A DNA stretch of 64,000 bases, taken from contig CAYRUB010000006.1 of NCBI GenBank assembly GCA_964427405.1, forward strand, positions 15,558-79,557, given 5' to 3'. Positions within the stretch are counted from its first letter, which is position 1, and each line of letters opens with the position of its first letter. Positions 14,478-63,835 of this stretch are shown piece by piece. Source of the stretch: an uncultured Planctomycetales bacterium (GTDB lineage Bacteria; Omnitrophota; Gorgyraeia; Gygaellales; Profunditerraquicolaceae). Below the pieces are notes generated by a model. That model did not search any database, was not told the origin of the DNA, and saw only the letters and a list, made by a program, of their open reading frames with translations. The position numbers were made by a program, and so were the translations under genes.

Positions 14478-14558
14478 TGCGGGGAGAGGGAGTTGAACCC
14501 TCAAGGGTTACCCCACACGCTTCTGAGACGTGCGCGTATGCCATTCCGCCACCCCCGC
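14478..14558 (-). tRNA. tRNA-Leu(CAG), class II with long variable arm
   Basis: Minus-strand fold: acceptor GCGGGGG/TCCCCGC, 3-bp D-stem, anticodon loop CUCAGAA (anticodon CAG), 13-nt variable arm, T-loop GGGTTCAACTCCC, discriminator A. CCA not encoded. Confidence 0.7.
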
Positions 14559-16110: not shown

Positions 16111-16517
16111 GGGGGTGAAAGGGTTCGACTTAAGATATGTCGGATAAAAGCAGCATGCCGCGGAGGTAAGGTTAGCCGCGTTAACAACTCCTTACACAAT
16201 TTAAACGCAAACACGCAAGTGTCACGTTTAGGAACATTTGTCACGCCGTCATTTACGGCAAGACCTATGTTCGTACCAGCCTTCGGGCTTAATTAAGTCC
16301 GAAGCCTCTAACCGTCCTGCCTACGGGATGGATTAGGGCCTAAGTAGGCTAGTTCCGGCGGTTAGCCTTTGAAGCCGGGGCGAAATTAAAAAGGCTGCGC
16401 TTTGCAAATCCTGCCCCGCGGGAGTTGCAAAGGTAAGTTTAAAATGCGGGGCTAAGCATGTAGCGGCTTCTATGCGATTACTTAAGGACGGCGGTTCAAT
16501 TCCGCCCACCTCCACCA
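16111..16517 (+). ncRNA. ssrA: tmRNA (SsrA), standard one-piece form
   Basis: 5' GGGGGUGAAAGGGUUCGAC and 3' GGACGGCGGUUCAAUUCCGCCCACCUCCACCA tRNA-like ends; about 407 nt; immediately after smpB. Confidence 0.85.
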
Positions 16518-23208: not shown

Positions 23209-23283
23209 CGGGGCGTGGCTCAGTTTGGCTAGAGCGCTTGCTTTGGGAGCAAGAGGTCACAGGTTCAAGTCCTGTCGCCCCGA
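23209..23283 (+). tRNA. tRNA-Pro(TGG)
   Basis: Cloverleaf: acceptor CGGGGCG/CGCCCCG, D-arm GCTC...GAGC, anticodon stem CTTGC/GCAAG with loop TTTGGGA (anticodon UGG), T-loop GGTTCAAGTCC, discriminator A. Confidence 0.8.
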
Positions 23284-23401
23284 CTTAAACGAGCAGATAA
23301 TTTACGGAGCCAGAGGCGACGTAAATTATAGGCCGTAAGGCCGTCTGCGAGTTTAATCCTTGCGAGTAAGGACGAGCAAGGATAGATAAATGATTATTAA
23401 T

Positions 23402-23475
23402 GCGCCTGTAGCTCAATTGGATAGAGCACCTGCCTTCTAAGCCGGTTGTTGGCCGTTCGATTCGGCCCAGGCGCA
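23402..23475 (+). tRNA. tRNA-Arg(TCT)
   Basis: Acceptor GCGCCTG/CAGGCGC, D-arm GCTCAATTGGATAGAGC, anticodon loop CTTCTAA (anticodon UCU), T-arm GGCCGTTCGATTCGGCC. One mismatch in the anticodon stem. Confidence 0.75.
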
Positions 23476-23503
23476 TAATAATCGAAGATAGATAAAGGTT
23501 TTT

Positions 23504-24712
23504 ATGAATAATTGGAAAAGAATCTTTATAGTAATAGTTATTTTGGTAATTTCCCTGAGTTGTTTTTATGCTTTTTTGATTGTTAAGGCAAAATTCATAC
23601 TTGCGGATAAACTCAGTTCTGCTTTTGGCCGTAAAGTGAAAATAGGCCAGCTCAAGCTTAGTCCGCCGCTTAATCTGGAGTTAATGGATTTAGATGTGGA
23701 GGGTTTAATTAATATAAACTATGTCTATATTTCACCCAGCATTCCGAATCTTTTAACCGGAAGACTTGCTTTAAATAAAATAAGGATTGTAAGGCCTAAG
23801 ATATCTTGCGAAAGGAGCTTGCCTCCGGCTCCTCCGGCAGCAACTGATAGCGCCGCTGTTTTAAATAAGTCAGAAGCCGAGAAACCAAAAGAAGAAACTC
23901 CCGCAGCAGCTAAAGCTAGTTTAAAGTTGGTCATCAAGAGTTTGAAAGTAAGGAGCGGGGAGATATATTTTCTTGACCACACCGCGGATTCGCGCAACGT
24001 TAAAGTAGTGATTAAAAATATAGATGTAAATTTAAATAATTTATATACCTATCCTGTCGACGTCATGGTTAATTTCAATCTAAGCGGTCGCCTGCCCTGG
24101 CAGTCAGGTGAGCCTGATGGTAAAATTTACCTTGATGGCTGGGTCAATCCTTATAAAAAGAATATGTCCGCCAATCTAAGAATTGAAGATATCGATGCTA
24201 TCGCTTTCTATCCGTATTATTCTACTTGGGTGGATTTAGAGAAAGCGCGCATTGATAAAGCTAAGCTTAATTTTAGCAGTAAAATTAAGGGAGAGAATAA
24301 TGATATATCTGCGCAGTGCCATTTGGAATTAGCAGATATTGTGCGTAAGGCGAGGCCTCCCGAAGAGCCGCAACAGAAGGCGGAAAGGCTTACTGACGCG
24401 GTGCTTGATATGTTTAAGGCGATGAATCAGGGGAAAGTAGTCTTGGATTTTACTTTGCATACAAAAATGGACCATCCGCAGTTTGGTTTTGAAAATATCA
24501 AATCGGCATTTGAAGGCAAGCTTATGCAGGCCAGAACTAACTCTGGGCTAAGGCCTCAAGATATGTTATTATGGCCGGGTAAAATGCTGCAAGGCGGGAT
24601 TAAAAGCGGATCGGATTTAACTAAAGCCGCAGTTGATGGCGTATTTGCTTTAGGTAATGGATTAAAGAAGCTTTTTGAAGATTCAATGAACAAACAGACT
24701 TCAGAAGATTAG
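23504..24712 (+). CDS. Hypothetical membrane-anchored protein (N-terminal TM, Pro/Ala-rich linker; AsmA/DUF748-like?)
   Basis: Single N-terminal TM helix, PPAPPAATDSAA linker, beta-rich remainder. No catalytic motif recognised. Confidence 0.35.
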   Translation: MNNWKRIFIVIVILVISLSCFYAFLIVKAKFILADKLSSAFGRKVKIGQLKLSPPLNLELMDLDVEGLININYVYISPSIPNLLTGRLALNKIRIVRPKISCERSLPPAPPAATDSAAVLNKSEAEKPKEETPAAAKASLKLVIKSLKVRSGEIYFLDHTADSRNVKVVIKNIDVNLNNLYTYPVDVMVNFNLSGRLPWQSGEPDGKIYLDGWVNPYKKNMSANLRIEDIDAIAFYPYYSTWVDLEKARIDKAKLNFSSKIKGENNDISAQCHLELADIVRKARPPEEPQQKAERLTDAVLDMFKAMNQGKVVLDFTLHTKMDHPQFGFENIKSAFEGKLMQARTNSGLRPQDMLLWPGKMLQGGIKSGSDLTKAAVDGVFALGNGLKKLFEDSMNKQTSED

Positions 24713-24728
24713 TTTTTATTAGATTTAT

Positions 24729-24803
24729 GGTGGCTATAGCTCAATTGGTTAGAGCGCTAGACTGTGGCTCTGGAGGTTGCGGGTTCGATCCCCGTTAGCC
24801 ACC
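24729..24803 (+). tRNA. tRNA-His(GTG) with encoded G-1
   Basis: G-1 plus acceptor GTGGCTA/TAGCCAC, anticodon loop CTGTGGC (anticodon GUG), T-loop GGGTTCGATCCCC, discriminator C. Confidence 0.85.
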
Positions 24804-51328: not shown

Positions 51329-51480
51329 ATACCCTTCCCGTAACATTATTTACCCTGTATACAGAGAGTCTTTCTGCCGCGCCGTATTTCTGGGCGTCCT
51401 TACCGGGGATACCTCTCAAATTTGCCCATAGCTGTTTACAGAGGGGGCTTCCCCTTGTCCAATATTACTGCCCGGCTTAA

Positions 51481-51625
51481 GAAGGAATGCCTAGTGGCAT
51501 AGAAACGCGTTGACAAATCAAATAGTTATGATAAATTAACGTCGTAAGTAGATTAAATCGTCCCGAGTTGTGAAGGGGTAAATCCCGGACGTTAAAAAAA
51601 TAAAACCTTCGTTGGGCTTAATACT
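51481..51625 (+). repeat. Copy 1 of a ~145-bp duplicated promoter/leader module (IR ATGCC-N4-GGCAT, TTGACA-16-TAAATT, terminator-like leader)
   Basis: Near-identical to 52988-53132. Contains an operator-like inverted repeat, a promoter and a GC stem plus T-run just before the gene start. Confidence 0.6.
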
Positions 51626-52878: not shown

Positions 52879-52987
52879 CATAGGGTTTTAGAAGAAGTGC
52901 CCATCTTTTATGATAAACAAACGAATAGCAAAAGGATTGACCTACGGCATTCCCATAGGGACGCAGTAATATCATTCTTGGGATTGA

Positions 52988-53132
52988 GAAGGAATGCCTA
53001 GTGGCATAGAAACGCGTTGACAAATCAAATAGTTATGATAAATTAACGTCGTAAGTAGATTAAATCGTCCCGAGTTGTGAAGGGGTAAATCCCGGACGTT
53101 AAAAAAGTAAAACCTTCGTTGGCCGTAATGTG
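52988..53132 (+). repeat. Copy 2 of the ~145-bp duplicated promoter/leader module
   Basis: 120 nt essentially identical to 51481-51600, then related terminator-like GC stem + T-run. Confidence 0.6.
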
Positions 53133-55209: not shown

Positions 55210-55944
55210 ATGGTGGAAGGTGTATGTAGATTTTGTGGCCAGAGTAAAAAACTGATAAAAGCTCATGTTGTTCCTGAGAAGTTTTTCAGTTTAGACGTGC
55301 AAAATCCTCTTCTTATGATTGCCGCTGATAAGCCTTATGAAACTAGATGTCCTATAGGAATATATGATGAAAATATTCTTTGTGCGGATTGCGACAATAA
55401 ATTAGGGGTTTATGACGAGGAAGCACAAAAGCTATTTTTGACAAATATAGGCATCTACAAACATAAAGATAAGGATTTGCATGAAATACCTCCAAGCGCA
55501 TATAACTATGAAAAGCTAAGATTATTTTTTATTTCATTGATTTGGAGAGCTTCCATTTCTTCAATGAATGCTTTCAGAAATGTGAGCCTAGGGCAAAAGT
55601 TCGAAAAGATGGCATTAGATATATTAAAGGATCCAGCATTAGACAGAGAAGATCTATTTTCTGTACTCATATTTAAACTTAAAGAGAATCCAGATATTCC
55701 TTTAGAAAAAGTTTATATTGAACCGTGGTCTTTCCGCTGTGAAGGAGCCAGGATGTATTCTTTTGTATTCGCGGGCTATAATATTCATATAAAAGTAGAT
55801 AAGCGCAAATTAAACCAACCGATTGCAGATTTCTTTTTGAAATCAAATAGCAACTTATTTATATTATCTCAGAATTCAGAACAAGCACTATCCCTTATGG
55901 CTAGAATTACTACTCAACACAACCAACTGAAATCGAATAATTGA
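55210..55944 (+). CDS. Putative HNH-like endonuclease domain protein
   Basis: CRFCGQSKKLIKAHVVPE ... CADCDNKLG (CxxC...H...CxxC) at the N-terminus. Confidence 0.35.
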   Translation: MVEGVCRFCGQSKKLIKAHVVPEKFFSLDVQNPLLMIAADKPYETRCPIGIYDENILCADCDNKLGVYDEEAQKLFLTNIGIYKHKDKDLHEIPPSAYNYEKLRLFFISLIWRASISSMNAFRNVSLGQKFEKMALDILKDPALDREDLFSVLIFKLKENPDIPLEKVYIEPWSFRCEGARMYSFVFAGYNIHIKVDKRKLNQPIADFFLKSNSNLFILSQNSEQALSLMARITTQHNQLKSNN

Positions 55945-55967
55945 TTTAAAGATGTTTATTCTTCAAT

Positions 55968-56260
55968 GTCCGGGTCGAGAGAGGCGGACATTCGTATCTC
56001 TTAATGCCTCAAGAAGTTAGATAATTTCTGGTCAGAAAATACCGGACAAATAGGACAAAATTAGCGAGGAATTACCTCTCTAAATCCAGAATATTCTTGA
56101 TATATTGAGGTATTGCGCATATAATTAGGCTAATAAATTCAGAGAGGTTTCTACTCTGCTCATGAGAGTGGGACCCCATATTTTCCTACGCAATAAGCTA
56201 CAAAAAATCCTCGATGGGGTAACTTGTCGAGGATTTTTATCTTGGGGTTGCTAATGATAG
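55968..56260 (+). repeat. Copy 1 of ~250-bp repeat family: IR TGTCCG-N12-CGGACA, tandem CGGACAA direct repeats, TTGATA-17-TATAAT promoter, ~110-nt transcript ending at intrinsic terminator
   Basis: Shared with 60300-60586 and, diverged, 63040-63230. Promoter at 56097-56125; terminator hairpin ATCCTCGAT...GTCGAGGAT + T-run at 56207-56241. Confidence 0.6.
56132..56241 (+). ncRNA. Candidate ~110-nt sRNA/leader transcribed from the repeat-borne consensus promoter
   Basis: Predicted TSS 7 nt after TATAAT; conserved 5' AGAGAGGTTTC...GAGAGTGGGACCCCA; ends at intrinsic terminator. Paralogous unit at 60467-60586. Confidence 0.3.
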
Positions 56261-56269
56261 TGGTACAAT

Positions 56270-57322
56270 ATGTCTTTGGAGATATCTAGCATGCAAAAAA
56301 CAAAGATGCCGGGGAATAGAATTTACCCCTACTTAATAAGCGTAGGGTTTGTTTTAATCATGACTTTTTTGGGTGAGTTTGTTAAAAGAAAGCTTGAGCC
56401 GACAAATATCGTGATGTTTTATCTTTTGGCTGTAGTAATAGTTGCCATTCGTTGGGGGCAGGGGCCAGCGATCGTAACCTCAATATTGAGTGTTCTGGCT
56501 TTTGATTTCTTTTTAGTTCCGCCATATCTCACCCTTAATGTTCATGATTTTGAGTATCTTTTTACCTTTGGGGCTTTTCTGGTAGTTGGTCTTATTGTGA
56601 GTACGCTTACTTCAAAAGTAAGAGCACAAATTATCCAACGCCAGACTGAGAAACTTCATTGCGCGCTTTTGAACTCAATTTCCCATGATTTAAAAACACC
56701 GCTTGTATCGATCACTGGGGCATTGAGCACTATTTTGGATAATACATCAAAGCTTAGCCAACAGCAAAAGAATGGGCTTTTGGAAACGGCCCGCGGTGAA
56801 TCTGAAAGATTGAATCACATAGTAAATAATATTCTGGATATGACTAGGACAGAATCCGGCGTATTACGGATTTCTAAAAAGCCATGTGATTTAAGGGATT
56901 TTATAGGAGCTTGTTTTGAACAGCTAAAAGATAAGATAGGCAGTCGAAACATAAAAATAAATATTCCAAAGGAGATGCCTGAAGTAAACGTAGATTTTCC
57001 GTGTATGCTCAAGGCGTTCTTAAATGTTATTGATAATGCTTTAAAGTATTCCCCTGATGGTTCGGAGATTGAAATCGGAGCTTCTTGTATCGACGGAAAG
57101 GCGCGTATTTTTGTGCAAGATTATGGTTATGGAATTCCCAAGGAAGACTTGGGACGTATTTTTAACAAGTTCTACCGGGTCCAGTGCGCTCAAAATATAT
57201 TGGGAACTGGTTTGGGATTAAGTATTTCAAAAAATATTATTGAGGCTCATGGCGGCTATATTAGCGCAGAAAGTGTTCTTGGTAAAGGTACCACGTTTAT
57301 TATAGAATTTCCGCTAGAGTAA
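56270..57322 (+). CDS. Sensor histidine kinase, KdpD-like C-terminal portion (TM domain + HisKA + HATPase_c); lacks N-terminal KdpD/Usp sensor domains
   Basis: Four TM helices; H-box SISHDLKTPL; N, G1, G2 boxes (IDNALKYS, QDYGYGIP, GTGLGLSI). Confidence 0.75.
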   Translation: MSLEISSMQKTKMPGNRIYPYLISVGFVLIMTFLGEFVKRKLEPTNIVMFYLLAVVIVAIRWGQGPAIVTSILSVLAFDFFLVPPYLTLNVHDFEYLFTFGAFLVVGLIVSTLTSKVRAQIIQRQTEKLHCALLNSISHDLKTPLVSITGALSTILDNTSKLSQQQKNGLLETARGESERLNHIVNNILDMTRTESGVLRISKKPCDLRDFIGACFEQLKDKIGSRNIKINIPKEMPEVNVDFPCMLKAFLNVIDNALKYSPDGSEIEIGASCIDGKARIFVQDYGYGIPKEDLGRIFNKFYRVQCAQNILGTGLGLSISKNIIEAHGGYISAESVLGKGTTFIIEFPLE

Positions 57323-57329
57323 AAGTATA

Positions 57330-58031
57330 ATGGCAGAACAAAACAATTTAAGAATTCTGGTTGTTGACGATGAAAAATCCATACGTAGTTTTCTTAAGAC
57401 ATCTCTTTCGGCGCACGGTTACGTTGTTTTTGAAGCAGCAAAAGGTAAAGAAGCCCTAACAGAGTCGGTTAGTGTTCATCCGGATGTTATTATTCTTGAC
57501 TTAGGACTTCCTGATATGGATGGAAGAGAGGTCATTGCAAATATCCGTAAACGGACAAAAACCCCGATAATCATTTTATCAGTAAGGGATGATTCGCTGG
57601 AGAAGATCGCTGCGCTTGATGCCGGAGCGGATGACTATCTTACCAAACCTTTTTCTGTCGGAGAGTTGTTGGCCCGCTTGAAGGCGGTGATGAGGCGTCT
57701 TTTGCCTCTAGAAAAGGACCAAATCCTACGAACAGGCAAGCTTATGATGGATATTACTAGTCGTCGGGTTACTGTTGAAGATAACCAGATTGATTTATCT
57801 CCTACTGAATATGACACTCTCAAGCTTCTTCTTTTAAACTCTGGGAAGGTGCTTACTCATAAACAAATTCTGCGTGAAATTTGGGATAAAACAGAAGATT
57901 ATGAGGGTATTTTACATCTTTTACGCGTAACGATGAGTAATCTGCGCAGCAAAATTGAACCTAACCCGGATCGCCCTATGTACATTCTTACGGAGCCGGG
58001 CGTGGGCTACCGCATGAGGTCTGATGATTAA
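57330..58031 (+). CDS. OmpR/KdpE-family response regulator
   Basis: REC domain (ILVVDDE...ILDLGLPDMDG) plus winged-helix trans_reg_C (LSPTEYDTLKLL...GVGYRM). Confidence 0.85.
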   Translation: MAEQNNLRILVVDDEKSIRSFLKTSLSAHGYVVFEAAKGKEALTESVSVHPDVIILDLGLPDMDGREVIANIRKRTKTPIIILSVRDDSLEKIAALDAGADDYLTKPFSVGELLARLKAVMRRLLPLEKDQILRTGKLMMDITSRRVTVEDNQIDLSPTEYDTLKLLLLNSGKVLTHKQILREIWDKTEDYEGILHLLRVTMSNLRSKIEPNPDRPMYILTEPGVGYRMRSDD

Positions 58032-58282
58032 ATTCTCGTTTTGACCTTTTTTTGACTTGCCTTCCTTGCCCGTCAAGCGTATCGTAATCCAATAGAATAA
58101 ATACAAAAATAAGTTGATTTTACACAGTGCCAGAGTGTTTCATTCTCTGGTTTTTTGTTAAATATTATGAAGAAAATAGCTATTTTTTATACTGTTACTC
58201 TAGGAATATTCTGGGAAGCGGTGTATGTAATGGTAATTATCGGCATAGGTTGGCTATTTGTATTAGCATTTCGGTATATACG

Positions 58283-59788
58283 ATGATACTTAGACCTCAA
58301 GTAAATGATATTAAGAACATCGGTTATTATCTGGGAAGAATAATCCTCGGTATCGGCCTGACCATGTTTTTACCGTTTATTACGGGGCTGGTTTTATTTA
58401 GAGAGCCTAATCCTGCTTTGGATTTCTTGATCAGCGCTAATATTGCTATATTTATCGGTTTGGCTTTAAGTTGGCTGTGTAAAACAAATAAGGAGCTAAA
58501 TTCTGGTCAGGCAATGGTTGTTATTGCTCTTTCATGGCTGGCCGCGATGGCCCTTAGTGCTATCCCGTTATTATTAAGTGGTCACTATAAGTCATTTCTT
58601 GATGCTTGTTTTGAAACCATGTCGGGTTTTACCACCACTGGGCTGACTCTTGTGCAAGATTTGGATCACCTTTCCCAGAGCCATAATTTATGGCGTCATT
58701 TAGGGCCTTTTCTGGGAGGGCAGGGAATCGCTATTATTGCGATTTCATTCTTGGTCAAGGGCACCAGCGGGACATTTAATCTGTATCTTGGGGAAGGGCG
58801 TGATGAAAAATTAGTCCCTAATGTTATCAACACGGCGCGGTTTATTTGGGTGATTAGCATAGTGTACTTAATCCTAGGGACCATTGTGTTAGGTTTGGTA
58901 GGGATCTCTATTGGATTGAAACCTCAAAGCGCATTCTTTCACGGTGCCTGTATTTTTATGGCTGGATTTGATACCGCAGGTTTCTCCCCGCAATCACCAA
59001 ACATTCTTTATTATCACAGCCTGATCTATGAAATTGTTATAATTTTCTTTATGGTCATCGGCTCATTTAACTTTAATTTGCATTATCAAATCTGGAAGGG
59101 GAATTTTAAAGAAATTTGGAAGAATATCGAAACGCGGACTTTCTTGTTTGTGATTATGATTGTTACTTTGATTACCCTGGCTGGCTTGAGGCGCTTGGGT
59201 GTTTATTCGGATGGAATGATACTTTTTCGCAAGGGTTTTTTTCAACTTGTCTCCGGACAAACTACAACCGGTTATATGACAATATATGCTCAGCAGTTTA
59301 TTAAGGAGTGGGGAGATTTAGCGTTGAGCGGGATAATTCTTTCTATGGCGCTGGGAGGTTGCGCTTGTTCTACGGCAGGGGGAATTAAAATGTTACGCGT
59401 AGGAATTATCTATAAGGCATTCAGGCAGGATATAAAAGCAATGATGCTTTCGCCAAGTGCTATCGTGGTGCAGAAATTTCATCATATAAAAACGATGTTT
59501 ATTGAAGATAAGCAGGTACGAGCAGTTTTGATTGTTACCTTAGGGTATCTTTTTCTTTACGGATTAGGTACTTTAGTAGGGGTAGGATTGGGATATCCTT
59601 TTTTGGAATCTCTCTTTGAGTCAACTTCTGCGGCTGCCAATGTTGGGCTTTCCTGTGGGATAACTGATACAAGTATGCCGGCAATATTAAAAGTGACCTA
59701 TATAATAGAAATGTGGGCAGGAAGACTGGAGTTAATGTCGGTTTTTGCGTTATTTGGTTTTTTTGTAGCGTATGTGAAAGGTAGATAA
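58283..59788 (+). CDS. TrkH/KtrB family potassium transporter
   Basis: Multi-TM protein with repeated pore-loop signatures (MSGFTTTG, GFDTAG, QTTTGY, SAAANVGLS). Start chosen at MILRPQV; the track's extended N-terminus lies in intergenic DNA. Confidence 0.8.
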   Translation: MILRPQVNDIKNIGYYLGRIILGIGLTMFLPFITGLVLFREPNPALDFLISANIAIFIGLALSWLCKTNKELNSGQAMVVIALSWLAAMALSAIPLLLSGHYKSFLDACFETMSGFTTTGLTLVQDLDHLSQSHNLWRHLGPFLGGQGIAIIAISFLVKGTSGTFNLYLGEGRDEKLVPNVINTARFIWVISIVYLILGTIVLGLVGISIGLKPQSAFFHGACIFMAGFDTAGFSPQSPNILYYHSLIYEIVIIFFMVIGSFNFNLHYQIWKGNFKEIWKNIETRTFLFVIMIVTLITLAGLRRLGVYSDGMILFRKGFFQLVSGQTTTGYMTIYAQQFIKEWGDLALSGIILSMALGGCACSTAGGIKMLRVGIIYKAFRQDIKAMMLSPSAIVVQKFHHIKTMFIEDKQVRAVLIVTLGYLFLYGLGTLVGVGLGYPFLESLFESTSAAANVGLSCGITDTSMPAILKVTYIIEMWAGRLELMSVFALFGFFVAYVKGR

Positions 59789-59790
59789 AA

Positions 59791-60276
59791 GTGAGAAGTT
59801 TTTTCTTATTATTGGTGTTGTGCTTGGTGCCGACTGTTTCTAGTTCTAACTGCTATGCTCAGACACCCACGAGTTTAGAATTGATAAACAATGCCAAACA
59901 GTATGACGGTAAAACTGTTAACTATAGAGGAGAGGTCATAGGAGAAGTAATGGTCCGCGGAGAGTTCGCTTGGCTACATGTGAATGATGGTATTATTGCA
60001 ATCGGTATTTGGGTTCCAAAGACAATGGTTCAAGATATTCTCTATGCCGGGAATTATCATAAAAAAGGAGATATCGTAGAAGTTTTCGGGACGTTTCATC
60101 GAAGCTGTTTGGAGCATGGGGGAGATTTAGATATTCATGCCTCTGAAATAAATAAAATAACTCCGGGAAGTTTGGTTATTCAGCCCATCAGTAGAAAGAA
60201 AGTTTATATCGGAGTCTCGTCTTTAGTACTCGTTTTGTTATTCTATGCATTAAAGAAATTTTTTCAGCGCAGATAA
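59791..60276 (+). CDS. Hypothetical secreted/membrane-anchored protein (161 aa)
   Basis: N-terminal signal peptide, C-terminal hydrophobic helix; GTG start overlapping the trkH stop. Confidence 0.35.
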   Translation: MRSFFLLLVLCLVPTVSSSNCYAQTPTSLELINNAKQYDGKTVNYRGEVIGEVMVRGEFAWLHVNDGIIAIGIWVPKTMVQDILYAGNYHKKGDIVEVFGTFHRSCLEHGGDLDIHASEINKITPGSLVIQPISRKKVYIGVSSLVLVLLFYALKKFFQRR

Positions 60277-60299
60277 CGTTAATATCTGGATTTAATTAT

Positions 60300-60586
60300 A
60301 AATGTCGTCACTCAAGGGCGGACATTTTGTATTCATTTGTCTCTCTGATAGTTGCGTCATTTCTAGCCAAAAAATACCGGACAAAACGGACAAGTTGGCG
60401 AGGAATAGCCTTCTCTAAAACCAGAATATTCTTGATATATTAAGGTATTACGCATATAATTAGGCTAATAATTTTAGAGAGGTTTCCCTTTGTGGAATAC
60501 GAGAGGGACCCCAGTAATATCATTCTCCTCGCTGTATTGGAGAGTTTAAGGCCTATGATCGCAATAGCGGTTGTAGGCCTTTTTAT
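60300..60586 (+). repeat. Copy 2 of the ~250-bp IR/DR/promoter repeat family, including a predicted ~118-nt transcript (60467-60586) ending at terminator AAGGCCTA...TAGGCC+T-run
   Basis: ATGTCG-N12-GGACAT inverted repeat, CGGACAAAACGGACAAG direct repeats, TTGATA-17-TATAAT promoter at 60432-60460, terminator at 60548-60586. Confidence 0.6.
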
Positions 60587-60611
60587 CTGGCGATGTCCGT
60601 AGGGCTTAGGA
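60580..60611. repeat. Right copy of ~32-bp direct repeat; candidate island boundary
   Basis: TTTTTATCTGGCGATGTCCGTAGGGCTTAGGA versus TTTTTATCTGGCGATGTCCCTAGGGTTTAGGG at 24874. Confidence 0.5.
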
Positions 60612-60790
60612 CATTGTATTTATTAGCCATATATCGAAACCTTCCGCACTACATCAAATTCATCTATATCTGTAAACGGAGAGGTCTTCCACTTGTCGAA
60701 TATTACTGCCCTCCTTACCTGGGATACTTCTTGACAAAAAAAGTGTTTTATTATATTATTAGCATATGCCAATAACTAAAAGGAAACTAT

Positions 60791-61087
60791 ATGACTAGAC
60801 CTTGTAGATGTAGAAGAATAAGATGTAGTCCTGACACGAATTACTTTAAGCCTCGGGGCATCCCTTTGGATATGCTTGAAGAGGTTAATCTTACCCTGGA
60901 TGAATTAGAGGCGGTTAGGCTTGCGGATTTAGAAGGTTTATATCAGGAGGATGGTGCTAGGAAAATGGATATTTCCCGGCAGACATTTGGTAATATCATA
61001 AATTCAGCTCACAGGAAAATAGCGGATGTTCTTTTAAACGCTAAAGCATTAAAGATAGAAGGCGGAAAGGTTAAAAAGGTAGGCTAA
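60791..61087 (+). CDS. DUF134 (UPF0251) family predicted DNA-binding protein
   Basis: CRCRRIRCSPDTNYFKPRGIP N-terminus typical of DUF134. Promoter TTGACA-17-TATTAT upstream. Confidence 0.6.
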   Translation: MTRPCRCRRIRCSPDTNYFKPRGIPLDMLEEVNLTLDELEAVRLADLEGLYQEDGARKMDISRQTFGNIINSAHRKIADVLLNAKALKIEGGKVKKVG

Positions 61088-61684
61088 ATGAATAATCTAA
61101 TAAAACAGGATCAAGATAGGTTAAAGCTTTTCAAGAAGCATGGTTATGATATCCCTAAAGCCAGAAATTTTATTCTTGCCAAAGCTGGGCCTATTCAGGG
61201 TCGAGTTTTGGAAGTGGGTACTGGCAGAGGACATACGGCGGTAGCTCTAGCAAGAAAAGGGATAAAACTTATTTCGATTGATTTAGACAAGAAAGCTCAA
61301 AGTGCAGCCAAGTTAAACCTTAAGAAAATGAAGTTAAATAAATATGTTGTTTTTAGGGTAATGAACGCCGAAAAATTAATTTATCCGGATAATTATTTTG
61401 ATTTTGTGATTTCGGTAAATTTTATTCACCATGCTGATTATCCCGGTAAATGCATTAGGGAGATGATAAGAGTTACTAAGGAAAAACTGGTAATTGTAGA
61501 TATTAATCAAAAAGGTCAGCGTGTTATGGAAAAAGTCCATGCGTTAGATGGGCATAGTCATGCGTCGTCTAAAATGTCCATGTTGGTTGTAAAAGAATAC
61601 TTACGTAAAACCGGATTGGTGGTTAAGGTTTATAGAGATGTATGTCAGACTGTTATCGTGGCTAAGAAAGGAGTAGTAAAGTGA
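61088..61684 (+). CDS. Class I SAM-dependent methyltransferase
   Basis: Motif I VLEVGTGRGHTAV; motif II/III spacing typical of small-molecule MTases. Confidence 0.65.
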   Translation: MNNLIKQDQDRLKLFKKHGYDIPKARNFILAKAGPIQGRVLEVGTGRGHTAVALARKGIKLISIDLDKKAQSAAKLNLKKMKLNKYVVFRVMNAEKLIYPDNYFDFVISVNFIHHADYPGKCIREMIRVTKEKLVIVDINQKGQRVMEKVHALDGHSHASSKMSMLVVKEYLRKTGLVVKVYRDVCQTVIVAKKGVVK

Positions 61685-62046
61685 AAGTATGTATTCCAAC
61701 AGAAACAAATGAAGGAAAGAACGCAAAGGTTTATGGTCATTTCGGTAGCGCACCATATTTTACCATTGTTGACACAGAGAAAGACGCTGTAGAGATTATT
61801 GACAATGCGAACCAGCATCATGCGCATGGGATGTGTCAACCGATGAACGCGTTAATGGGGAAGTCGATTGATGCTGTGGTTACCGGTGGAATGGGCGCCC
61901 GGGCGGTTCAAGGACTTAATCAAGGCGGAATCAAGGCTTATCGGGCTATTCCGGGGACAGTTGCTGATATTGTTAGTCAATTTACCAAAGGTGGGCTTGA
62001 GGAAATAACCGTCGAGAATGCCTGCTCTCAACATGGATGTCATTAA
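61681..62046 (+). CDS. Dinitrogenase FeMo-cofactor-binding (NifX/NifB C-terminal-like) domain protein
   Basis: GHFGSAPYFTIVD...VVTGGMGARA pattern of pfam02579-like proteins. Confidence 0.55.
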   Translation: MKVCIPTETNEGKNAKVYGHFGSAPYFTIVDTEKDAVEIIDNANQHHAHGMCQPMNALMGKSIDAVVTGGMGARAVQGLNQGGIKAYRAIPGTVADIVSQFTKGGLEEITVENACSQHGCH

Positions 62047-62059
62047 AGAGGAGGACATA

Positions 62060-62380
62060 ATGAAGATAGGGGTTATAATCTCCAGTAATGATACCGAGAC
62101 TTGTTGGAATGCTCTACGATACGGCAATTTTTGCCTTGGGCAGAAGGATGAAGTAAAGGTATTTTTGACCGGCAAAGGCGTCGAATACCAGAATATTAGC
62201 ACGGAAAAATTCAACACGATTGAGCAGGCGGAAGAATTGCTTCAGTCTGGTGGTAAAATACTGGCTTGCGGAACGTGCATTAAATCGCGGAATCAGGAAG
62301 GTACGGAAATGTGTCCGATTAATACGATGAAGGATATGTATGAAATTATTAAAGAGAGCGACAAGGTTGTTACCTTTTAG
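62060..62380 (+). CDS. DsrE/DsrF-like family protein
   Basis: MKIGVIISSND ... ILACGTC pattern. AGGAGG RBS before ATG at 62060. Confidence 0.45.
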   Translation: MKIGVIISSNDTETCWNALRYGNFCLGQKDEVKVFLTGKGVEYQNISTEKFNTIEQAEELLQSGGKILACGTCIKSRNQEGTEMCPINTMKDMYEIIKESDKVVTF

Positions 62381-62389
62381 CAAGAGGAT

Positions 62390-62581
62390 ATGAATAAAAC
62401 AGTTTTGATCAATGAAAATCTTTGCATTGGCTGCGCAAAGTGCGTTGAATTATGTCCCAAAAATATCTTGTATGTAGATAAGACAAGCAATAAATGTAAG
62501 GTTTCAGATGAAACTAAATGCGATAAGCTTGCTGGTTGTCAACGAGTCTGCCCTGTAAAAGCAATCAACATAATCGAATAA
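62390..62581 (+). CDS. 4Fe-4S ferredoxin (63 aa)
   Basis: CIGCAKCVELCP and C...CQRVCP cluster motifs. Confidence 0.7.
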   Translation: MNKTVLINENLCIGCAKCVELCPKNILYVDKTSNKCKVSDETKCDKLAGCQRVCPVKAINIIE

Positions 62582-62617
62582 TCCCCTACAAAAATAGCAG
62601 AATGAATTCTATGGGAT

Positions 62618-63070
62618 ATGTGGGAATCATACAGAAATATTCTTAGGCGCTACCCTAAAATTCCCCTATCTGAAGAAAGACGTTTGATTCTCAAGGCTCA
62701 AAGAGGATCCAAGAAAAGCAAGGATGAACTTGTTCTCCGTCATATCAGTTTCCTAATCTTTAGAATTCGCAAAATAGCATTTTCTTCCTTGCTTTGGCCA
62801 TTTGGAGAGGATTTATTAGCAGAAGCCATTCTTATCGTTTATAAAAAAATTGAAAGTTATGACCTTAATTACTGCGATAAGAAGGGGAATCCTAACCCGG
62901 TTAAATTTACCTCTTACATTTGGAAACGAATTGATGGTTTCATAATTGATTCATTAAAGAAAGAGCTTAACGAATCAAATTATTACGATAGATACAGCGG
63001 GTATGCCATCAAAAATGGGGATTCATCGTCTATGTCCGGGTCCGGAGAGGTGGACAATTCTATCTCTTGA
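62618..63070 (+). CDS. Sigma-70 family fragment (region 1.2/2-like), apparently truncated
   Basis: LSEERRLILKAQRGSKKSKDELVLRHISFLIFRI resembles sigma70 region 1.2-2.1. Only 150 aa; the C-terminus is encoded by the repeat element. Confidence 0.35.
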   Translation: MWESYRNILRRYPKIPLSEERRLILKAQRGSKKSKDELVLRHISFLIFRIRKIAFSSLLWPFGEDLLAEAILIVYKKIESYDLNYCDKKGNPNPVKFTSYIWKRIDGFIIDSLKKELNESNYYDRYSGYAIKNGDSSSMSGSGEVDNSIS

Positions 63071-63230
63071 CTTATCAGAGAGTTATAAATTACAAGTCAA
63101 TAATGACCGGACAAGGCGGACATTCCCGCTCTAAATCCACAATATCCTTGATATATTGAGTTATCAAGCCTATAATTACTTGTATAAATAGAGAGGGGTT
63201 TCTCTTTGGTTTATACGAGTGGATTATTAT
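63040..63230 (+). repeat. Copy 3 (diverged) of the IR/DR/promoter repeat family; promoter TTGATA-17-TATAAT at 63148-63176
   Basis: TGTCCG-N14-GACAA inverted repeat, CGGACAAGGCGGACAT direct repeats, consensus promoter, conserved AGAGAGGGGTTTC leader. Confidence 0.5.
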
Positions 63231-63259
63231 TTTAATAAAAATACAAGTTATAGAAAGAG

Positions 63260-63634
63260 GTGCGAGATATGAAAAAGATACTTTTAACAGCATTCGTTTT
63301 TGTATTTACTAGCCCTTTGTGTTTTGCCCAACAGGCTTCAGCACCGGTTAGCCAAACTGCGCAAACATCAGCAGGAATCAGAACTATGACCGGCACCGGC
63401 AGGGTTGGTTCGATAATTATTGGGGACTCTACGAAGGGAATAAAATCACAACTTTCGGTTATGGATGACTATGGGAAGAATACTAGCTTTGCAGTATCAG
63501 GCGAAACCGCTATCACTGATAAAGACGGAAAGGTTGTTGCCATAAGTGATTTAAAGAAAGGCGATAAGGTTACTGTAGTTTATGCAGTAGGTAAGAAAGT
63601 TAATAGAGCGCAATCTATTAAATTAGTAGAATAA
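63260..63634 (+). CDS. Hypothetical secreted protein (124 aa)
   Basis: Signal peptide KKILLTAFVFVFTSPLCFAQ; Gly/Thr-rich beta-type mature region. Confidence 0.35.
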   Translation: MRDMKKILLTAFVFVFTSPLCFAQQASAPVSQTAQTSAGIRTMTGTGRVGSIIIGDSTKGIKSQLSVMDDYGKNTSFAVSGETAITDKDGKVVAISDLKKGDKVTVVYAVGKKVNRAQSIKLVE

Positions 63635-63835
63635 TAAGTCGTCAGTAGCGGATTACGGAAAAATTGATATATTAAGCGTCACTTGAAGGCTATTGATCGG
63701 AGACGGTCAGTAGCCTTTTTGCTCCTTTCAATTATACCTAGGTACAATTGATTCCATTTTAGATACTTCTATACTATTACAAGGCTGGAGAATTGTAACC
63801 TATGGAAATTGATTTAGAAAATGGAGGTGAATATA

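What the first reader, a model, noticed from the sequence alone, without database searches (positions are those of the whole stretch)
55968..63230. Three-copy ~250-bp regulatory repeat: inverted repeat TGTCCG-N12-CGGACA, tandem CGGACAA direct repeats, consensus promoter
Copies at 55968, 60300 and 63040 each start at the 3' end of the preceding ORF. That ORF's last codons are encoded by the repeat. Each copy has a palindromic ATGTCCG...CGGACAT site. About 45 nt further on there are two CGGACAA half-sites spaced 9-11 nt apart, the geometry of an OmpR/PhoB-type response-regulator site. About 45 nt beyond that lies a textbook TTGATA-17-TATAAT promoter. One copy sits directly upstream of a KdpD-like/KdpE two-component operon, so KdpE is a candidate binder. 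Two copies appear to have truncated pre-existing genes (the sigma-70 fragment and the HNH-like ORF's tail), suggesting a mobile, MITE-like promoter cassette.
Basis: seen in the sequence. Interest (0 to 1): 0.6.

Follow-up and report, generated by a model that had tools for sequence, protein, structure and literature searches.

The report
Conserved Omnitrophota terminator–promoter–leader cassette
The three repeats are real and belong to an old, selectively maintained family of about 230-nt intergenic cassettes found across Candidatus Omnitrophota, which head ion- and stress-homeostasis operons and a family of roughly 115-nt small RNAs; they are not an active MITE and have not truncated their neighbouring genes.

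Summary
The three-copy repeat is real (c1 55960-56185, c2 60297-60522, c3 63026-63223). A fourth, decayed copy lies at 63664-63721.

It is not a local duplication. The same cassette occurs in at least 11 Omnitrophota MAGs and more than 120 metagenome contigs, giving 203 copies in 131 loci.

The cassette is modular, in this order:
- a terminator-like hairpin (TGTCC…GGACA);
- two GGACA boxes 9 nt apart, 44-45 nt upstream of the -35;
- a TTGATA-17-TATAAT promoter (-10 intact in 111 of 119 copies);
- a conserved transcribed hairpin whose substitutions favour G·U pairing on the + strand.

Half the copies run into a strong terminator. c2 makes a conserved ~115-nt sRNA that is absent from Rfam.

Flanking genes are 88% co-directional and enriched for ion, metal and stress homeostasis.

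The "sigma-70 fragment" is a full-length, conserved 150-aa sigma-region-2-like family whose 3' end overlaps the cassette. The 244-aa ORF is also full length.

There are no terminal inverted repeats, target duplications, transposase genes or viral copies. Paralogues are as diverged as any two copies, so MITE mobility is not supported.

The protein that binds the GGACA boxes is unidentified. The KdpE-like regulator is only a candidate by association.

The parts
55960..56185 (+). Cassette copy c1, hairpin through leader
   Evidence: nhmmer hit covering HMM positions 3-228, E=1.3e-66; alignment.
55966..55991 (+). c1 module M1 hairpin: ATGTCCG, 12-nt loop, CGGACAT
   Evidence: Read; CGGACA hits at 55967-72(-) and 55985-90(+). 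Across the family, 83 of 87 copies have a stem of at least 5 bp, with median dG -10.1 against -2.8 when shuffled.
56042..56058 (+). c1 GGACA direct repeat (CCGGACAAATAGGACAA), 9-nt period
   Evidence: Across the family the spacing is 9 nt in 63 of 64 copies and the boxes start 44-45 nt before the -35 in 62 of 64.
56097..56125 (+). c1 promoter TTGATA-17-TATAAT
   Evidence: 11 of 12 consensus matches. TATAAT sits at exactly 17 nt in 111 of 119 family copies, although the -10 lay outside the search pattern.
56141..56177 (+). c1 transcribed leader: AGAGAGG plus a bulged hairpin ending in GGGACCCC
   Evidence: The 11-pair model is 84.7% paired, against 40-63% when the partners are slid. Substitutions that keep G.U pairing on the + strand number 147, against 55 disruptive ones.
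56203..56240 (+). Terminator-like hairpin (CCTCGA…TCGAGG plus a T-run) between the c1 leader and the kinase gene
   Evidence: dG -17.8. No other promoter-like site lies before the kinase start.
57330..58031 (+). OmpR-family (KdpE-like) response regulator, a candidate GGACA-box binder by association only
   Evidence: Pfam Response_reg plus Trans_reg_C. The NCBIfam KdpE model scores 213.7 bits, below its 325-bit cut-off. The same kinase-regulator-TrkH-161aa operon is cassette-headed in L053, L142 and L144.
60297..60522 (+). Cassette copy c2
   Evidence: nhmmer hit covering HMM positions 4-230, E=7.4e-62.
60432..60460 (+). c2 promoter TTGATA-17-TATAAT
60467..60586 (+). Predicted ~115-120-nt sRNA driven by c2: leader hairpin, a second hairpin (TTCTCC…GGAGAG) and an intrinsic terminator at 60548-60581
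   Evidence: Terminator of 15 pairs. 24 unique homologues of near-constant length, 121-123 nt as extracted. RNAalifold predicts 28 pairs, 14 of them with compensatory changes, mostly in the terminator. No Rfam family matches. The 5' end is inferred from the -10.
60593..60614 (+). Second M1-type hairpin (ATGTCCG…GGACAT) directly after the sRNA terminator
   Evidence: The same arrangement is seen in L003, L011, L014, L033, L076 and L119.
62618..63070 (+). Sigma-region-2-like 150-aa ORF whose last ~13 codons are encoded by the c3 hairpin
   Evidence: 775 homologues, nearly all ~150 aa. In 16 of 20 loci it is the ORF directly upstream of a cassette, and again in 4 of 4 further loci. Pfam Sigma70_r2 scores E=9.5e-4, below its cut-off.
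63026..63223 (+). Cassette copy c3, the most diverged: it lacks the GCGAGGAA box and its leader 3' arm has decayed
   Evidence: nhmmer hit covering HMM positions 3-215, E=3.4e-47. The related locus L116 carries about 62 extra nt at this junction.
63148..63176 (+). c3 promoter TTGATA-17-TATAAT
63664..63721 (+). Decayed fourth copy: a TTGATATATTAAG remnant joined to an sRNA-type terminator, with the leader and second hairpin deleted
   Evidence: Read. L116 8367-8441 carries the missing ~74 nt.

Best explanation
The repeat is a lineage-specific, modular operon-boundary cassette of Candidatus Omnitrophota.

**Modules, 5' to 3'**
1. M1: a GC-rich hairpin with conserved TGTCC/GGACA at its base. It sits a median of 13 nt after the upstream stop codon and most likely terminates or insulates the upstream operon.
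2. Two GGACA boxes with a 9-nt period. Together with the hairpin arms they give four GGACA-type boxes at fixed positions. They are most likely operator or activator sites for a so far unidentified DNA-binding regulator. An OmpR-family response regulator such as the KdpE-like one behind c1 is the best candidate.
3. A near-consensus sigma-70-type promoter with a fixed 17-bp spacer.
4. A ~45-nt transcribed leader that folds into a bulged hairpin.

**What the transcript becomes**
- Either a stand-alone ~115-nt sRNA ended by a strong intrinsic terminator (c2),
- or the 5' UTR of the downstream operon (c3),
- or a 5' UTR that must read through a terminator (c1).

**Organisation and history**
- Several copies, roughly 5-10 per genome, sit in one region. 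They head co-directional operons for K+, phosphate, arsenic, metal and oxidative-stress homeostasis.
- One copy always follows the sigma-region-2-like gene.
- The copies are old paralogues kept by purifying selection and reshuffled module by module. They are not active transposable elements.

**Shown versus inferred**
- Shown: the anatomy, its conservation, its positional and orientation bias, the + strand bias of leader substitutions, and the absence of MITE hallmarks.
- Inferred: promoter activity, the transcription start, termination, and the identity of the box-binding protein.
For: **Breadth**
- 11 Omnitrophota MAGs.
- 203 HMM hits in 131 loci, 50 of which hold 2-6 hits.

**Selection**
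- The cassette core is 69-83% identical between genomes whose sigma-like genes share only 45-60% of third codon positions, the closest pair (window and L007) excepted at 75%.
- Conservation stops sharply after GGGACCCC.

**Promoter**
- The -10 TATAAT, which was not part of the search pattern, sits at exactly 17 nt in 111 of 119 copies.

**Boxes**
- TGTCC peaks at -140/-130, GGACA at -120, and two GGACA at -56/-47 relative to the -35. These bins hold 40-50 of 59 copies against about 0.45 expected per bin.
- The spacing is 9 nt in 63 of 64 copies.
- A diverged lineage (L139) keeps the hairpin, the boxes and a TTGAAA-17-TATAAT promoter.

**Leader**
- 84.7% of cells are paired, against 40-63% when the partners are slid.
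- Wobble-preserving versus disruptive transitions number 147 against 55.

**M1 hairpin**
- 83 of 87 copies have a stem of at least 5 bp; dG is -10.1 against -2.8 when shuffled.
- The upstream stop codon lies a median of 13 nt before the hairpin.

**Orientation**
- 841 of 953 ORFs run in the cassette's direction.
- The first downstream ORF is co-oriented in 127 of 140 cases.

**Transcript fate**
- 65 of 131 copies have a terminator-like hairpin within 170 nt after the leader.
- 24 unique sRNA-type homologues have near-constant length.

**Age**
- Copies within one locus are 73% identical. Random pairs from different loci are 76%. Sigma-linked positional orthologues are 82%.
- The nearest neighbour lies in another locus for 30 of 30 copies.

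**Neighbours**
- OmpR-family regulators, DUF4118 kinases, TrkH, PstB, PhoU, ArsC, ACR3, ArsP, SOD, ferritin, P-type ATPase, NikR/CbiMNQO and MscL.
Against: - No expression data exist. The transcription start, termination and promoter activity are all inferred.
- RNAalifold predicts no consensus structure for the 132-leader alignment. Covariation there is only slightly above the shuffles, because the sequence itself is so conserved.
- The M1 hairpin has only a weak T-tract (4.3 T in 10 nt, background 3.0). It shows no clear strand bias (G.T 34 against A.C 22). It could therefore be a DNA site rather than a terminator.
- Only 64 of 119 promoters carry two exact boxes at the canonical distance. 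About 14 copies have 57-200 nt inserted between boxes and promoter. The boxes are therefore separable from the promoter.
- The 9-nt period is off the 10-11 nt that I recall for OmpR/PhoB sites.
- Nucleotide-level conservation of the promoter spacer and the initially transcribed region is not explained by a simple promoter-plus-operator model.
- Clustering in one genomic region is inferred from one hit stretch per MAG and from dense loci, not from a whole-genome census.
Confidence: 0.6

Rival explanations
1. MITE-like mobile promoter cassette. On this reading it is a non-autonomous transposable element that carries a promoter, spreads within and between genomes, and truncates genes on insertion.
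For: - Multiple copies sit in front of non-homologous genes.
- c1 and c2 meet the operational 'putative mobile promoter' criterion of at least 50 nt at at least 80% identity upstream of unrelated CDSs (PMC3488235).
- Partial and chimeric copies exist:
  - copies holding M1 only, the promoter module only, or the leader only;
  - a toxin-antitoxin pair lying between a partial and a full copy in L013.
- By eye, about 12-25 nt of the sigma-like gene's 3' end travels with hairpin variants in non-sigma contexts. My quantitative attempt at this was mis-registered and is uninformative.
Against: - Terminal inverted match between the two ends averages 5.5 nt against 5.2 when shuffled. Direct match between the flanks averages 4.56 against 4.52.
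- No transposase or integrase appears in the Pfam gene tables of four 16-20 kb loci.
- There are 0 hits in 2.9 million viral contigs.
- Each MAG gave only one hit stretch in the genome scan, including a 1.19-Mb contig. This is despite 45% of copies matching that pattern.
- Paralogues are no more alike than copies from different genomes.
- The neighbouring genes are intact.
Confidence: 0.12
2. The primary product is a multi-copy regulatory sRNA of about 115 nt. It would resemble RsmX/Y/Z, Qrr or OmrA/B, whose paralogues share a conserved promoter and an upstream activator site. Copies that lead into mRNAs would then be secondary exaptations of the sRNA's promoter and 5' hairpin.
For: - 24 unique sRNA-type units have near-constant length and conserved inter-helix sequences (CCCCAGUAAUAUC, GUUUAA) plus strong terminators.
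- At least two, and up to three, units occur in one 20-kb locus (L142).
- The sRNA after c2 is followed by a separate TTGACA-17-TATTAT promoter for the next operon.
- Conservation of the initially transcribed region fits a functional RNA 5' end.
Against: - About half the copies have no terminator and run into an ORF within a median of 65 nt.
- Covariation outside the terminator is weak.
- No target or seed has been identified.
- A proposed closing helix between AGAGAGG and a downstream CU-rich stretch is not enriched over controls (4.18 against 3.96 and 3.64).
Confidence: 0.3
3. The GGACA hairpin and direct repeat are recombination sites. The region would then be an integron-like array in which gene cassettes are inserted or exchanged at the junction between boxes and promoter.
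For: - Arrays of co-directional units are each bounded by the same element (window; L088 with 6 hits in 8.5 kb).
- The junction between boxes and promoter is an indel hotspot:
  - inserts in 14 loci;
  - a toxin-antitoxin insertion in L013;
  - a deletion in c3.
- The hairpin stem shows compensatory changes while its base sequence stays conserved.
Against: - No integrase or recombinase lies near any examined locus.
- The units are whole operons of ordinary homeostasis genes, each with its own promoter.
- The sites do not resemble attC core sites as I recall them (not tested).
- Indels between a terminator and a promoter are expected to be nearly neutral anyway.
Confidence: 0.05
4. The whole ~230 nt is one structured RNA, for example the 3' UTR of the upstream gene, and the promoter-like hexamers are incidental.
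For: - Nucleotide-level conservation runs right through the promoter spacer.
- Several small inverted repeats are present (GAGG…CCTC, and CCTCTCT…AGAGAGG flanking the promoter).
- Hairpins with variable loops occur in the inserted modules.
Against: - The -35 and -10 hexamers and the 17-nt spacing are almost invariant.
- Modules occur independently of one another.
- RNAalifold finds nothing in the leader set.
- M1 shows no + strand substitution bias.
- By eye on two variant copies, CCTCTCT and AGAGAGG show no covariation.
- No Rfam match was found.
Confidence: 0.04

Closest known systems
Putative mobile promoters / promoter propagation (Matus-Garcia, Nijveen and van Passel 2012, PMC3488235)
   Same: Homologous promoter sequence upstream of non-homologous CDSs within a genome. 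The c1-c2 core is 75 nt at 93% identity. Families can be shared across taxa, and conservation extends into the 5' UTR.
   Different: This family is conserved across many species under purifying selection rather than by recent duplication. It is composite (terminator-like hairpin, boxes, promoter, leader RNA). It is clustered in one region and also drives a stand-alone sRNA.
Paralogous sRNA families with a shared promoter and upstream activator site controlled by a response regulator (RsmX/Y/Z with the GacA box; OmrA/B with OmpR). This comparison is from my own knowledge.
   Same: Several sRNA copies per genome of about 115 nt. They have conserved 5' parts, a Rho-independent terminator and a conserved repeat motif upstream of the promoter. 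A two-component system is encoded nearby.
   Different: The same promoter and 5' hairpin also head many protein-coding operons. No targets or GGA-type motifs have been established, and the regulator is unidentified.
OmpR/PhoB-type response-regulator sites, such as the Pho box and the KdpE site (from my own knowledge)
   Same: Tandem direct repeats with an xxACA core, upstream of a promoter and next to an autoregulated two-component operon.
   Different: The period is 9 nt rather than 10-11. The position is about -90/-81 from the inferred transcription start, with a full -35 hexamer present. The same motif also occurs as an inverted pair forming a hairpin about 65 nt further upstream. Binding is untested.
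Correia elements and other promoter-bearing MITEs; REP/BIME and BOX mosaic repeats (from my own knowledge)
   Same: Short intergenic repeats with hairpins and modular composition, which can provide promoters or terminators.
   Different: No terminal inverted repeats, no target-site duplications, low copy number, strictly oriented with the flanking genes, and deep divergence between paralogues.
Phage lambda PR'-6S RNA-tR' with Q antitermination (from my own knowledge)
   Same: A strong promoter gives a short terminated transcript, with genes beyond the terminator. The promoter spacer and early transcribed region are conserved in sequence. c1 requires read-through of a terminator.
   Different: No Q-like gene was found, and no phage context (0 viral hits). 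Half the copies have no terminator.

Membership tests
MITE (miniature inverted-repeat transposable element) | Terminal inverted repeats | tested here: not met
   The longest inverted match between the two 50-nt ends of 62 full copies averages 5.5 nt, against 5.2 when shuffled.
MITE (miniature inverted-repeat transposable element) | Target-site duplication flanking each copy | tested here: not met
   The longest direct match between flanks averages 4.56 nt, against 4.52 when shuffled.
MITE (miniature inverted-repeat transposable element) | Many dispersed, recently amplified (near-identical) copies, plus a related autonomous element with a transposase | tested here: not met
   Each MAG gave only one hit stretch, including a 1.19-Mb contig. 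Paralogues are 73% identical, about the same as random pairs. No transposase appears in the Pfam gene tables of the examined loci.
Putative mobile promoter family (PMC3488235) | At least 50 nt at at least 80% identity upstream of non-homologous CDSs in one genome | tested here: met
   c1 and c2 share 75 nt at 93% identity. The downstream genes are a histidine kinase versus an sRNA followed by a DUF134 operon.
Sigma-70-type promoter | -35 and -10 hexamers close to TTGACA/TATAAT with 16-18 bp spacing, conserved in homologues | tested here: met
   11 of 12 matches in all three window copies. TATAAT sits at exactly 17 nt in 111 of 119 copies.
Sigma-70-type promoter | Transcription initiates about 7 nt downstream of the -10 | not testable with these tools
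   No expression data are available. Indirect support comes from the + strand-specific substitution pattern in the downstream hairpin.
OmpR/PhoB-type response-regulator binding site | Tandem direct repeats with a ~10-11-bp period near the promoter | tested here: inconclusive
   A direct repeat is present, but its period is 9 nt in 63 of 64 copies and it starts 44-45 nt upstream of the -35. The family definition is from my own knowledge.
OmpR/PhoB-type response-regulator binding site | Binding by the cognate regulator | not testable with these tools
   There is only association. OmpR-family regulators occur in 21 of 131 loci. The kinase-regulator-TrkH operon is cassette-headed in 4 of 4 genomes examined.
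Intrinsic (Rho-independent) terminator, applied to the M1 hairpin | GC-rich stem-loop followed by a U-tract, placed after a stop codon | tested here: inconclusive
   The stem has a median of 8 bp and dG -10.1. The stop codon lies a median of 13 nt upstream. The tract, however, holds only 4.3 T in 10 nt, and there is no clear strand bias.
Any Rfam 15 RNA family | Covariance-model match | tested here: not met
   Nothing at gathering thresholds in the region. With E up to 10 over 55900-63300 only three chance-level hits appeared, at 17-21 bits.
Integron cassette array / attC | Adjacent IntI integrase; attC sites with conserved core and inverse-core sequences; mostly promoterless cassettes | tested here: not met
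   No integrase appears in the Pfam scans of the window ORFs or in the gene tables of four loci. Every unit carries its own promoter. The comparison with attC core sequence is from my own knowledge and was not tested.
Sigma-70 family, applied to the 150-aa ORF at 62618-63070 | Region 2 (core binding, -10 recognition) | tested here: inconclusive
   - Pfam Sigma70_r2 scores 19.4 bits, below the 24-bit cut-off.
- NCBIfam SigY and ECF models score far below their cut-offs.
- hhalign against RpoE residues 8-65 gives 12% probability.
- By eye, regions 1.2-2.4 are recognisable at motif level (for example KFTSYIWKRIDGFI against the KFSTYATWWIRQAI motif I recall from sigma-70).
Sigma-70 family, applied to the 150-aa ORF at 62618-63070 | Region 4 (-35 recognition) | tested here: not met
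   The protein ends about 30 residues after the region 2.4-like motif. 775 homologues have the same ~150-aa length. A profile search of 1.84 billion representatives finds 167 relatives, nearly all under 200 aa.

The most novel reading that the evidence does not exclude
The cassette may be the cis-element of a previously unrecognised, locus-specific transcription system centred on the sigma-region-2-only protein.

- That gene is the last gene of different ion- and metal-homeostasis operons.
- Its stop codon lies inside or right next to a cassette in every genome examined.
- The protein could act on cassette promoters, either as one half of a split sigma factor or as an RNA-polymerase-binding modulator.
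- Its partner could be a GGACA-box-binding protein, for example the sigma-region-4-like DUF134 helix-turn-helix protein or the OmpR-family regulator.
- The shared leader and sRNA would then be the system's common output.
Probability: 0.08. Interest if true: 0.8.

Novelty: new member of a known kind. Interest (0 to 1): 0.5.

Why it matters
Omnitrophota are uncultured, and almost nothing is known about how they regulate genes. This cassette gives three things.

- A concrete, phylum-level promoter, operator and leader consensus. It marks a co-regulated set of K+, phosphate, arsenic, metal and oxidative-stress operons.
- A candidate new sRNA family that can be added to RNA family databases.
- A well-defined DNA motif (GGACA boxes at fixed positions) and three candidate binding proteins for direct tests.

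It is also a clear case of promoter reuse that is maintained by selection over long times rather than spread by transposition. That bears on how "mobile promoter" families should be interpreted.

Tried and rejected
- **Rfam.** Nothing relevant at gathering thresholds or with E up to 10.
- **RNAalifold on 132 leaders.** It predicted no pairs. The hairpin model rests on manual pairing, pair counts and transition asymmetry.
- **A closing helix between AGAGAGG and a downstream CU-rich stretch.** RNAalifold suggested it for the sRNA subset. It is not enriched across all copies.
- **Sigma-54 promoter reading of the inserted module.** By eye the GG-to-GC spacing is wrong. Rejected.
- **A second promoter using GGACA as its -35.** Inserts of 57-200 nt break any fixed spacing. 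Rejected.
- **Antisense ORF across c3 (63090-63293, 67 aa).** It is open in only some copies. It is conserved only because the DNA is conserved.
- **AlphaFold model of the sigma-like protein.** Mean pLDDT was 52.7, too low for a fold search.
- **PDB sequence and profile searches for the sigma-like protein.** Only E of about 0.2-1 to sigma factors.
- **HUH/RAYT-REPIN analogy.** By eye the sigma-like protein has no HUH motif. Rejected.
- **Reaching the source contig beyond 64 kb by exact protein look-up.** This failed or returned only a 2.2-kb contig.
- **Measuring how far the sigma-gene 3' end travels with the hairpin.** The attempt was mis-registered and uninformative. The claim of 12-25 nt rests on reading the sequences.
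- **Non-Omnitrophota genome hits.** The seven such hits lack the other modules and are chance matches. This agrees with my own estimate of about 8 chance matches for that pattern.

Full report

Yes. The repeat finder returns a three-member family with a 75-nt core (56077-56151, 60412-60486, 63128-63202). Identity to c1 is 93% for c2 and 79% for c3. An alignment of about 300 nt around each copy has 73% mean column identity.

Each copy carries three features:
- a TGTCC…GGACA inverted repeat;
- two GGACA boxes 9 nt apart;
- TTGATA-17-TATAAT.

CGGACA is over-represented in the window: 27 occurrences against 11.8 +/- 3.5 expected. The three promoters are three of the four best sigma-70-like matches in 55-64 kb.

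One sub-claim holds for only one copy. Only the ORF before c3 (62618-63070) reads into the repeat. The ORFs before c1 and c2 stop 21 and 25 nt upstream of the hairpin.

**2. It is a lineage-wide family, not a local duplication.**

- A gapped pattern scan of one genome per GTDB species found the same architecture in 11 Candidatus Omnitrophota MAGs. Two of them are labelled Planctomycetales. The scan also returned seven hits that lack the other modules and are chance matches.
- An HMM built from 15 copies finds 203 hits in 131 loci. Fifty of these loci hold 2-6 hits.
- Viral contigs have none.
- By these relatives the window is from an Omnitrophota genome. L116 is about 90% identical to it over 62.6-64 kb.

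**3. Anatomy.**

The cassette is modular.

- **M1 (HMM positions 3-101).** A hairpin with a conserved TGTCC/GGACA base. Its inner stem varies with compensation (CCGCC/GGCGG, CCACC/GGTGG, CCGGT/ACCGG). About 60 nt of conserved spacer follows.
- **GGACA direct repeat.** Consensus ACCGGACAAAACGGACAAATT.
- **Promoter module and leader.** A GCGAGGAA-N4-5-CCTCTCTAAA box, the promoter, and the leader AGAGAGGTTTCCCCTCGGCTCATACGAGAGGGACCCC. Conservation ends abruptly after the leader.
- **Independent modules.** Hits covering only M1, only the promoter module or only the leader exist.
- **Inserted unit.** About 14 loci carry an extra unit between the boxes and the GCGAGGAA box. It is a hairpin plus TTTCGCTAGATAAAAGCTTAAGGTGCTCAAA, present one to three times.
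- **c3.** It has lost the GCGAGGAA box relative to L116.
- **A fourth copy in the window.** The remnant at 63664-63721 keeps a -35 remnant and an sRNA-type terminator. It has lost the ~74 nt that L116 retains.

**4. Promoter.**

The search pattern covered only the -35 region. TATAAT nevertheless sits exactly 17 nt downstream in 111 of 119 copies.

Flanking genes are 88% co-directional with the cassette. The first downstream ORF is co-oriented in 127 of 140 cases.

Promoter activity itself is inferred, not shown.

**5. GGACA boxes.**

Relative to the -35 start, the boxes fall at fixed positions:
- TGTCC peaks at -140/-130;
- GGACA peaks at -120;
- two GGACA peak at -56/-47.

These bins hold 40-50 of 59 full copies, against about 0.45 expected per bin.

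Spacing is 9 nt in 63 of 64 copies, and the distance to the -35 is 44-45 nt in 62 of 64.

A diverged lineage (L139) keeps the hairpin, the direct repeat, extra TGTCC boxes next to the -35 and a TTGAAA-17-TATAAT promoter. The boxes and the promoter are therefore the most persistent features. This fits a DNA-binding regulator.

However, only 64 of 119 promoters have two exact boxes at the canonical distance. The boxes are a separable module.

**6. Leader RNA and sRNA.**

I paired the leader by hand into an 11-pair hairpin with one bulge and one C·A position.
- It is 84.7% paired across 132 distinct leaders, against 40-63% when the partners are slid.
- RNAalifold calls no structure on this set.
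- Covariation is small, because the sequence itself is nearly invariant.

The better evidence is directional. Transitions that keep G·U pairing on the + strand outnumber disruptive ones by 147 to 55. For C-to-U opposite G the count is 95 against 18. These counts are of sequences, not independent events. They indicate selection on an RNA transcribed from the predicted promoter.

Downstream of the leader:
- 65 of 131 copies have a terminator-like hairpin within 170 nt.
- A subset of 24 unique sequences, including c2 and up to three in L142, forms a unit of near-constant length. It is 121-123 nt as extracted, so about 115 nt from the inferred start. The unit has the leader hairpin, a CU/GA hairpin, conserved linkers and a strong terminator.
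- No Rfam family matches it.
- After c2 the next operon has its own TTGACA-17-TATTAT promoter, so this unit is probably a stand-alone sRNA.
- After c1 the terminator lies 32-54 nt before the kinase start with no other promoter-like site. That operon must depend on read-through. This is an inference.

**7. M1 hairpin.**

- 83 of 87 unique copies have a stem of at least 5 bp, with a median of 8.
- dG is -10.1, against -2.8 when shuffled.
- The upstream stop codon lies a median of 13 nt before the hairpin.
- The following 10 nt hold only 4.3 T.
- Mismatch types show no clear strand preference: 34 G·T against 22 A·C.

A terminator or insulator role is the simplest reading. A double-stranded DNA site for the same GGACA-binding protein is not excluded.

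**8. Neighbours, and the "truncated genes".**

*The sigma-like ORF before c3.*
- It is one of 775 homologues, nearly all ~150 aa.
- They are 75-88% identical in protein while third codon positions are about 55% identical.
- It is the ORF directly upstream of a cassette in 16 of the 20 loci that hold it, and in 4 of 4 further loci fetched through homologues.
- Its similarity to sigma factors is remote:
  - Pfam Sigma70_r2 below cut-off;
  - NCBIfam far below cut-off;
  - hhalign 12% probability;
  - 167 relatives among 1.84 billion representatives, almost all under 200 aa.
- By eye the region 1.2-2.4 motifs are recognisable, and there is no region 4.
- It is therefore a full-length small protein, not a fragment made by insertion.

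*The 244-aa ORF before c1.* It has 33 homologues, most of them 235-283 aa and most covering 85-100% of the query, so it is also intact.

*Other recurrent neighbours*:
- OmpR-family regulators (21 loci) and DUF4118 kinases (18 loci);
- TrkH, PstB, PhoU, ArsC, ACR3, ArsP, DUF134, SOD, ferritin, P-type ATPase, NikR/CbiMNQO, MscL;
- small GIY-YIG proteins.

The kinase-regulator-TrkH-161aa operon of the window recurs in L053, L142 and L144, each time preceded by a cassette or leader.

**9. Evolutionary behaviour.**

- Core identity is 73% between copies in the same locus, 76% between random copies from different loci, and 82% between sigma-linked positional orthologues.
- All 30 copies in multi-copy loci have their nearest relative in another locus.
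- There are no terminal inverted repeats or target duplications beyond the shuffled controls.
- In the genome scan each MAG gave a single stretch, although 45% of copies match that pattern.
- Individual 8-20-kb loci hold up to six hits.

Together these results point to roughly 5-10 old copies per genome, concentrated in one region and maintained by selection. Module-level indels and recombination occur among them, for example the toxin-antitoxin pair between a partial and a full copy in L013. An actively transposing MITE is not supported.

**10. Most likely mechanism.**

The cassette most likely works as an operon boundary.
- The hairpin closes the upstream unit.
- The GGACA boxes recruit a regulator.
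- The near-consensus promoter starts a transcript whose first ~45 nt form a conserved hairpin.
- That transcript is either a short sRNA or the 5' UTR of a homeostasis operon.

The regulator is unknown. An OmpR-family regulator is the best candidate by conserved linkage, and because I recall an xxACA core as typical of tandem sites in that family. The 9-nt period and the distal position are atypical, however.

The DUF134 protein is an alternative. Its helix-turn-helix aligns weakly to RpoE region 4.2, and its best solved relative is the DeoR N-terminal domain.

The function of the leader hairpin is open. It could stabilise the transcript, bind a protein, or take part in attenuation.

**11. Comparison and novelty.**

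Operationally the window copies qualify as a "putative mobile promoter" family (PMC3488235). The cassette fails every MITE criterion tested. In function it most resembles regulon promoters with upstream activator sites that drive paralogous sRNAs, such as RsmX/Y/Z or OmrA/B (from my own knowledge).

Two literature searches found nothing describing this cassette or the sigma-like family. I rate it a new member of a known kind. It has a low-probability but interesting possibility that the sigma-region-2-only protein is part of a dedicated transcription system for this locus.

Noticed in passing
window 62618-63070: A conserved ~150-aa protein family with only a sigma-70 region 1.2-2.4-like part and no region 4. 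It has 775 homologues and seems essentially confined to Omnitrophota. It is always the last gene of varied ion- and metal-homeostasis operons and is always followed by a cassette.
   Followed up: partly
window 60467-60586; L142 1373-1494, 5477-5585, 10611-10732; about 20 other loci: A candidate new sRNA family of about 115 nt with three hairpins and conserved linkers (CCCCAGUAAUAUC and GUUUAA). It is absent from Rfam 15 and multi-copy within one locus.
   Followed up: partly
window 63664-63721: A decayed fourth cassette/sRNA copy. A -35 remnant is joined directly to an sRNA-type terminator. The related locus L116 (8367-8441) keeps the ~74 nt that are deleted here.
   Followed up: partly
window 51340-51480 and 60654-60717; also L007, L017, L078, L092, L097, L103, L121: Another conserved intergenic motif family, CTGT(A/T)TACAGAGAG…CTTCCCCTTGTCCAATATTACTGCCC, sometimes in tandem. 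It contains the palindrome CTGTATACAG. Its first half resembles the start of the cassette leader (AGAGAGG..TTCCCCTTGT).
   Followed up: no
window 51461-51622 and 52968-53129: A separate 162-nt repeat at 93% identity. It has a TTGACA-type promoter, a structured leader (CGTCG…CCCGAG…GGGG…CGGACG) and an intrinsic terminator. It lies upstream of a 407-aa ORF and a DUF4238 414-aa ORF. It has no Rfam hit at gathering thresholds and looks like a riboswitch or attenuator.
   Followed up: no
L116 9017-9079; L028, L032, L037, L051, L082, L088, L089, L102, L106, L114, L119, L131: A small insertable unit, present 1-3 times between the GGACA boxes and the GCGAGGAA box. It consists of a hairpin (TCCTGC, variable loop, GCAGGA) plus TTTCGCTAGATAAAAGCTTAAGGTGCTCAAA. 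The hairpin loops vary from a few to more than 100 nt.
   Followed up: partly
window 60791-61087 and 12 other loci: DUF134 proteins have a Cys-rich N-terminus (RPCRCRRIRC) and a helix-turn-helix that aligns weakly with sigma region 4.2. They are the first gene of cassette- or promoter-headed operons carrying a methyltransferase, a NifX-like protein, DsrE, ferredoxin and arsenic-related genes. In the window and in L141 the same operon ends with the sigma-region-2-like gene.
   Followed up: partly
L013 2440-2790 (- strand): A RelE/ParE-type toxin-antitoxin pair with its own palindromic-operator promoter. It lies between a partial cassette (hairpin, boxes and GCGAGGAA box) and a full cassette.
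   Followed up: partly
window 56270-57322; L142 1-1207: The kinase behind c1 has only the DUF4118 membrane part and the kinase core of KdpD. In L142 a separate KdpD-N/Usp/DUF4118/GAF protein is encoded nearby and is itself followed by a cassette. This suggests a split KdpD-like sensor that controls TrkH rather than Kdp.
   Followed up: no
L021, L037, L075, L128, L131: Small GIY-YIG (YhbQ-like, ~81 aa) genes recur directly downstream of cassettes. Each is preceded by a GC-rich hairpin.
   Followed up: no
L015 4760-4880: An Armatimonadota contig carries a tandem run of CGGACAAA(A/C)C units. It lacks the other cassette modules and is probably unrelated.
   Followed up: no
window 16111-16517, 14478-14558, 23209-24803: A tmRNA gene and four tRNA genes lie upstream of the region (Rfam gathering hits). 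Nearer the cassettes, genes at 50-55 kb have a weak SIR2-like hit (below the Pfam cut-off) and a DUF4238 hit.
   Followed up: no
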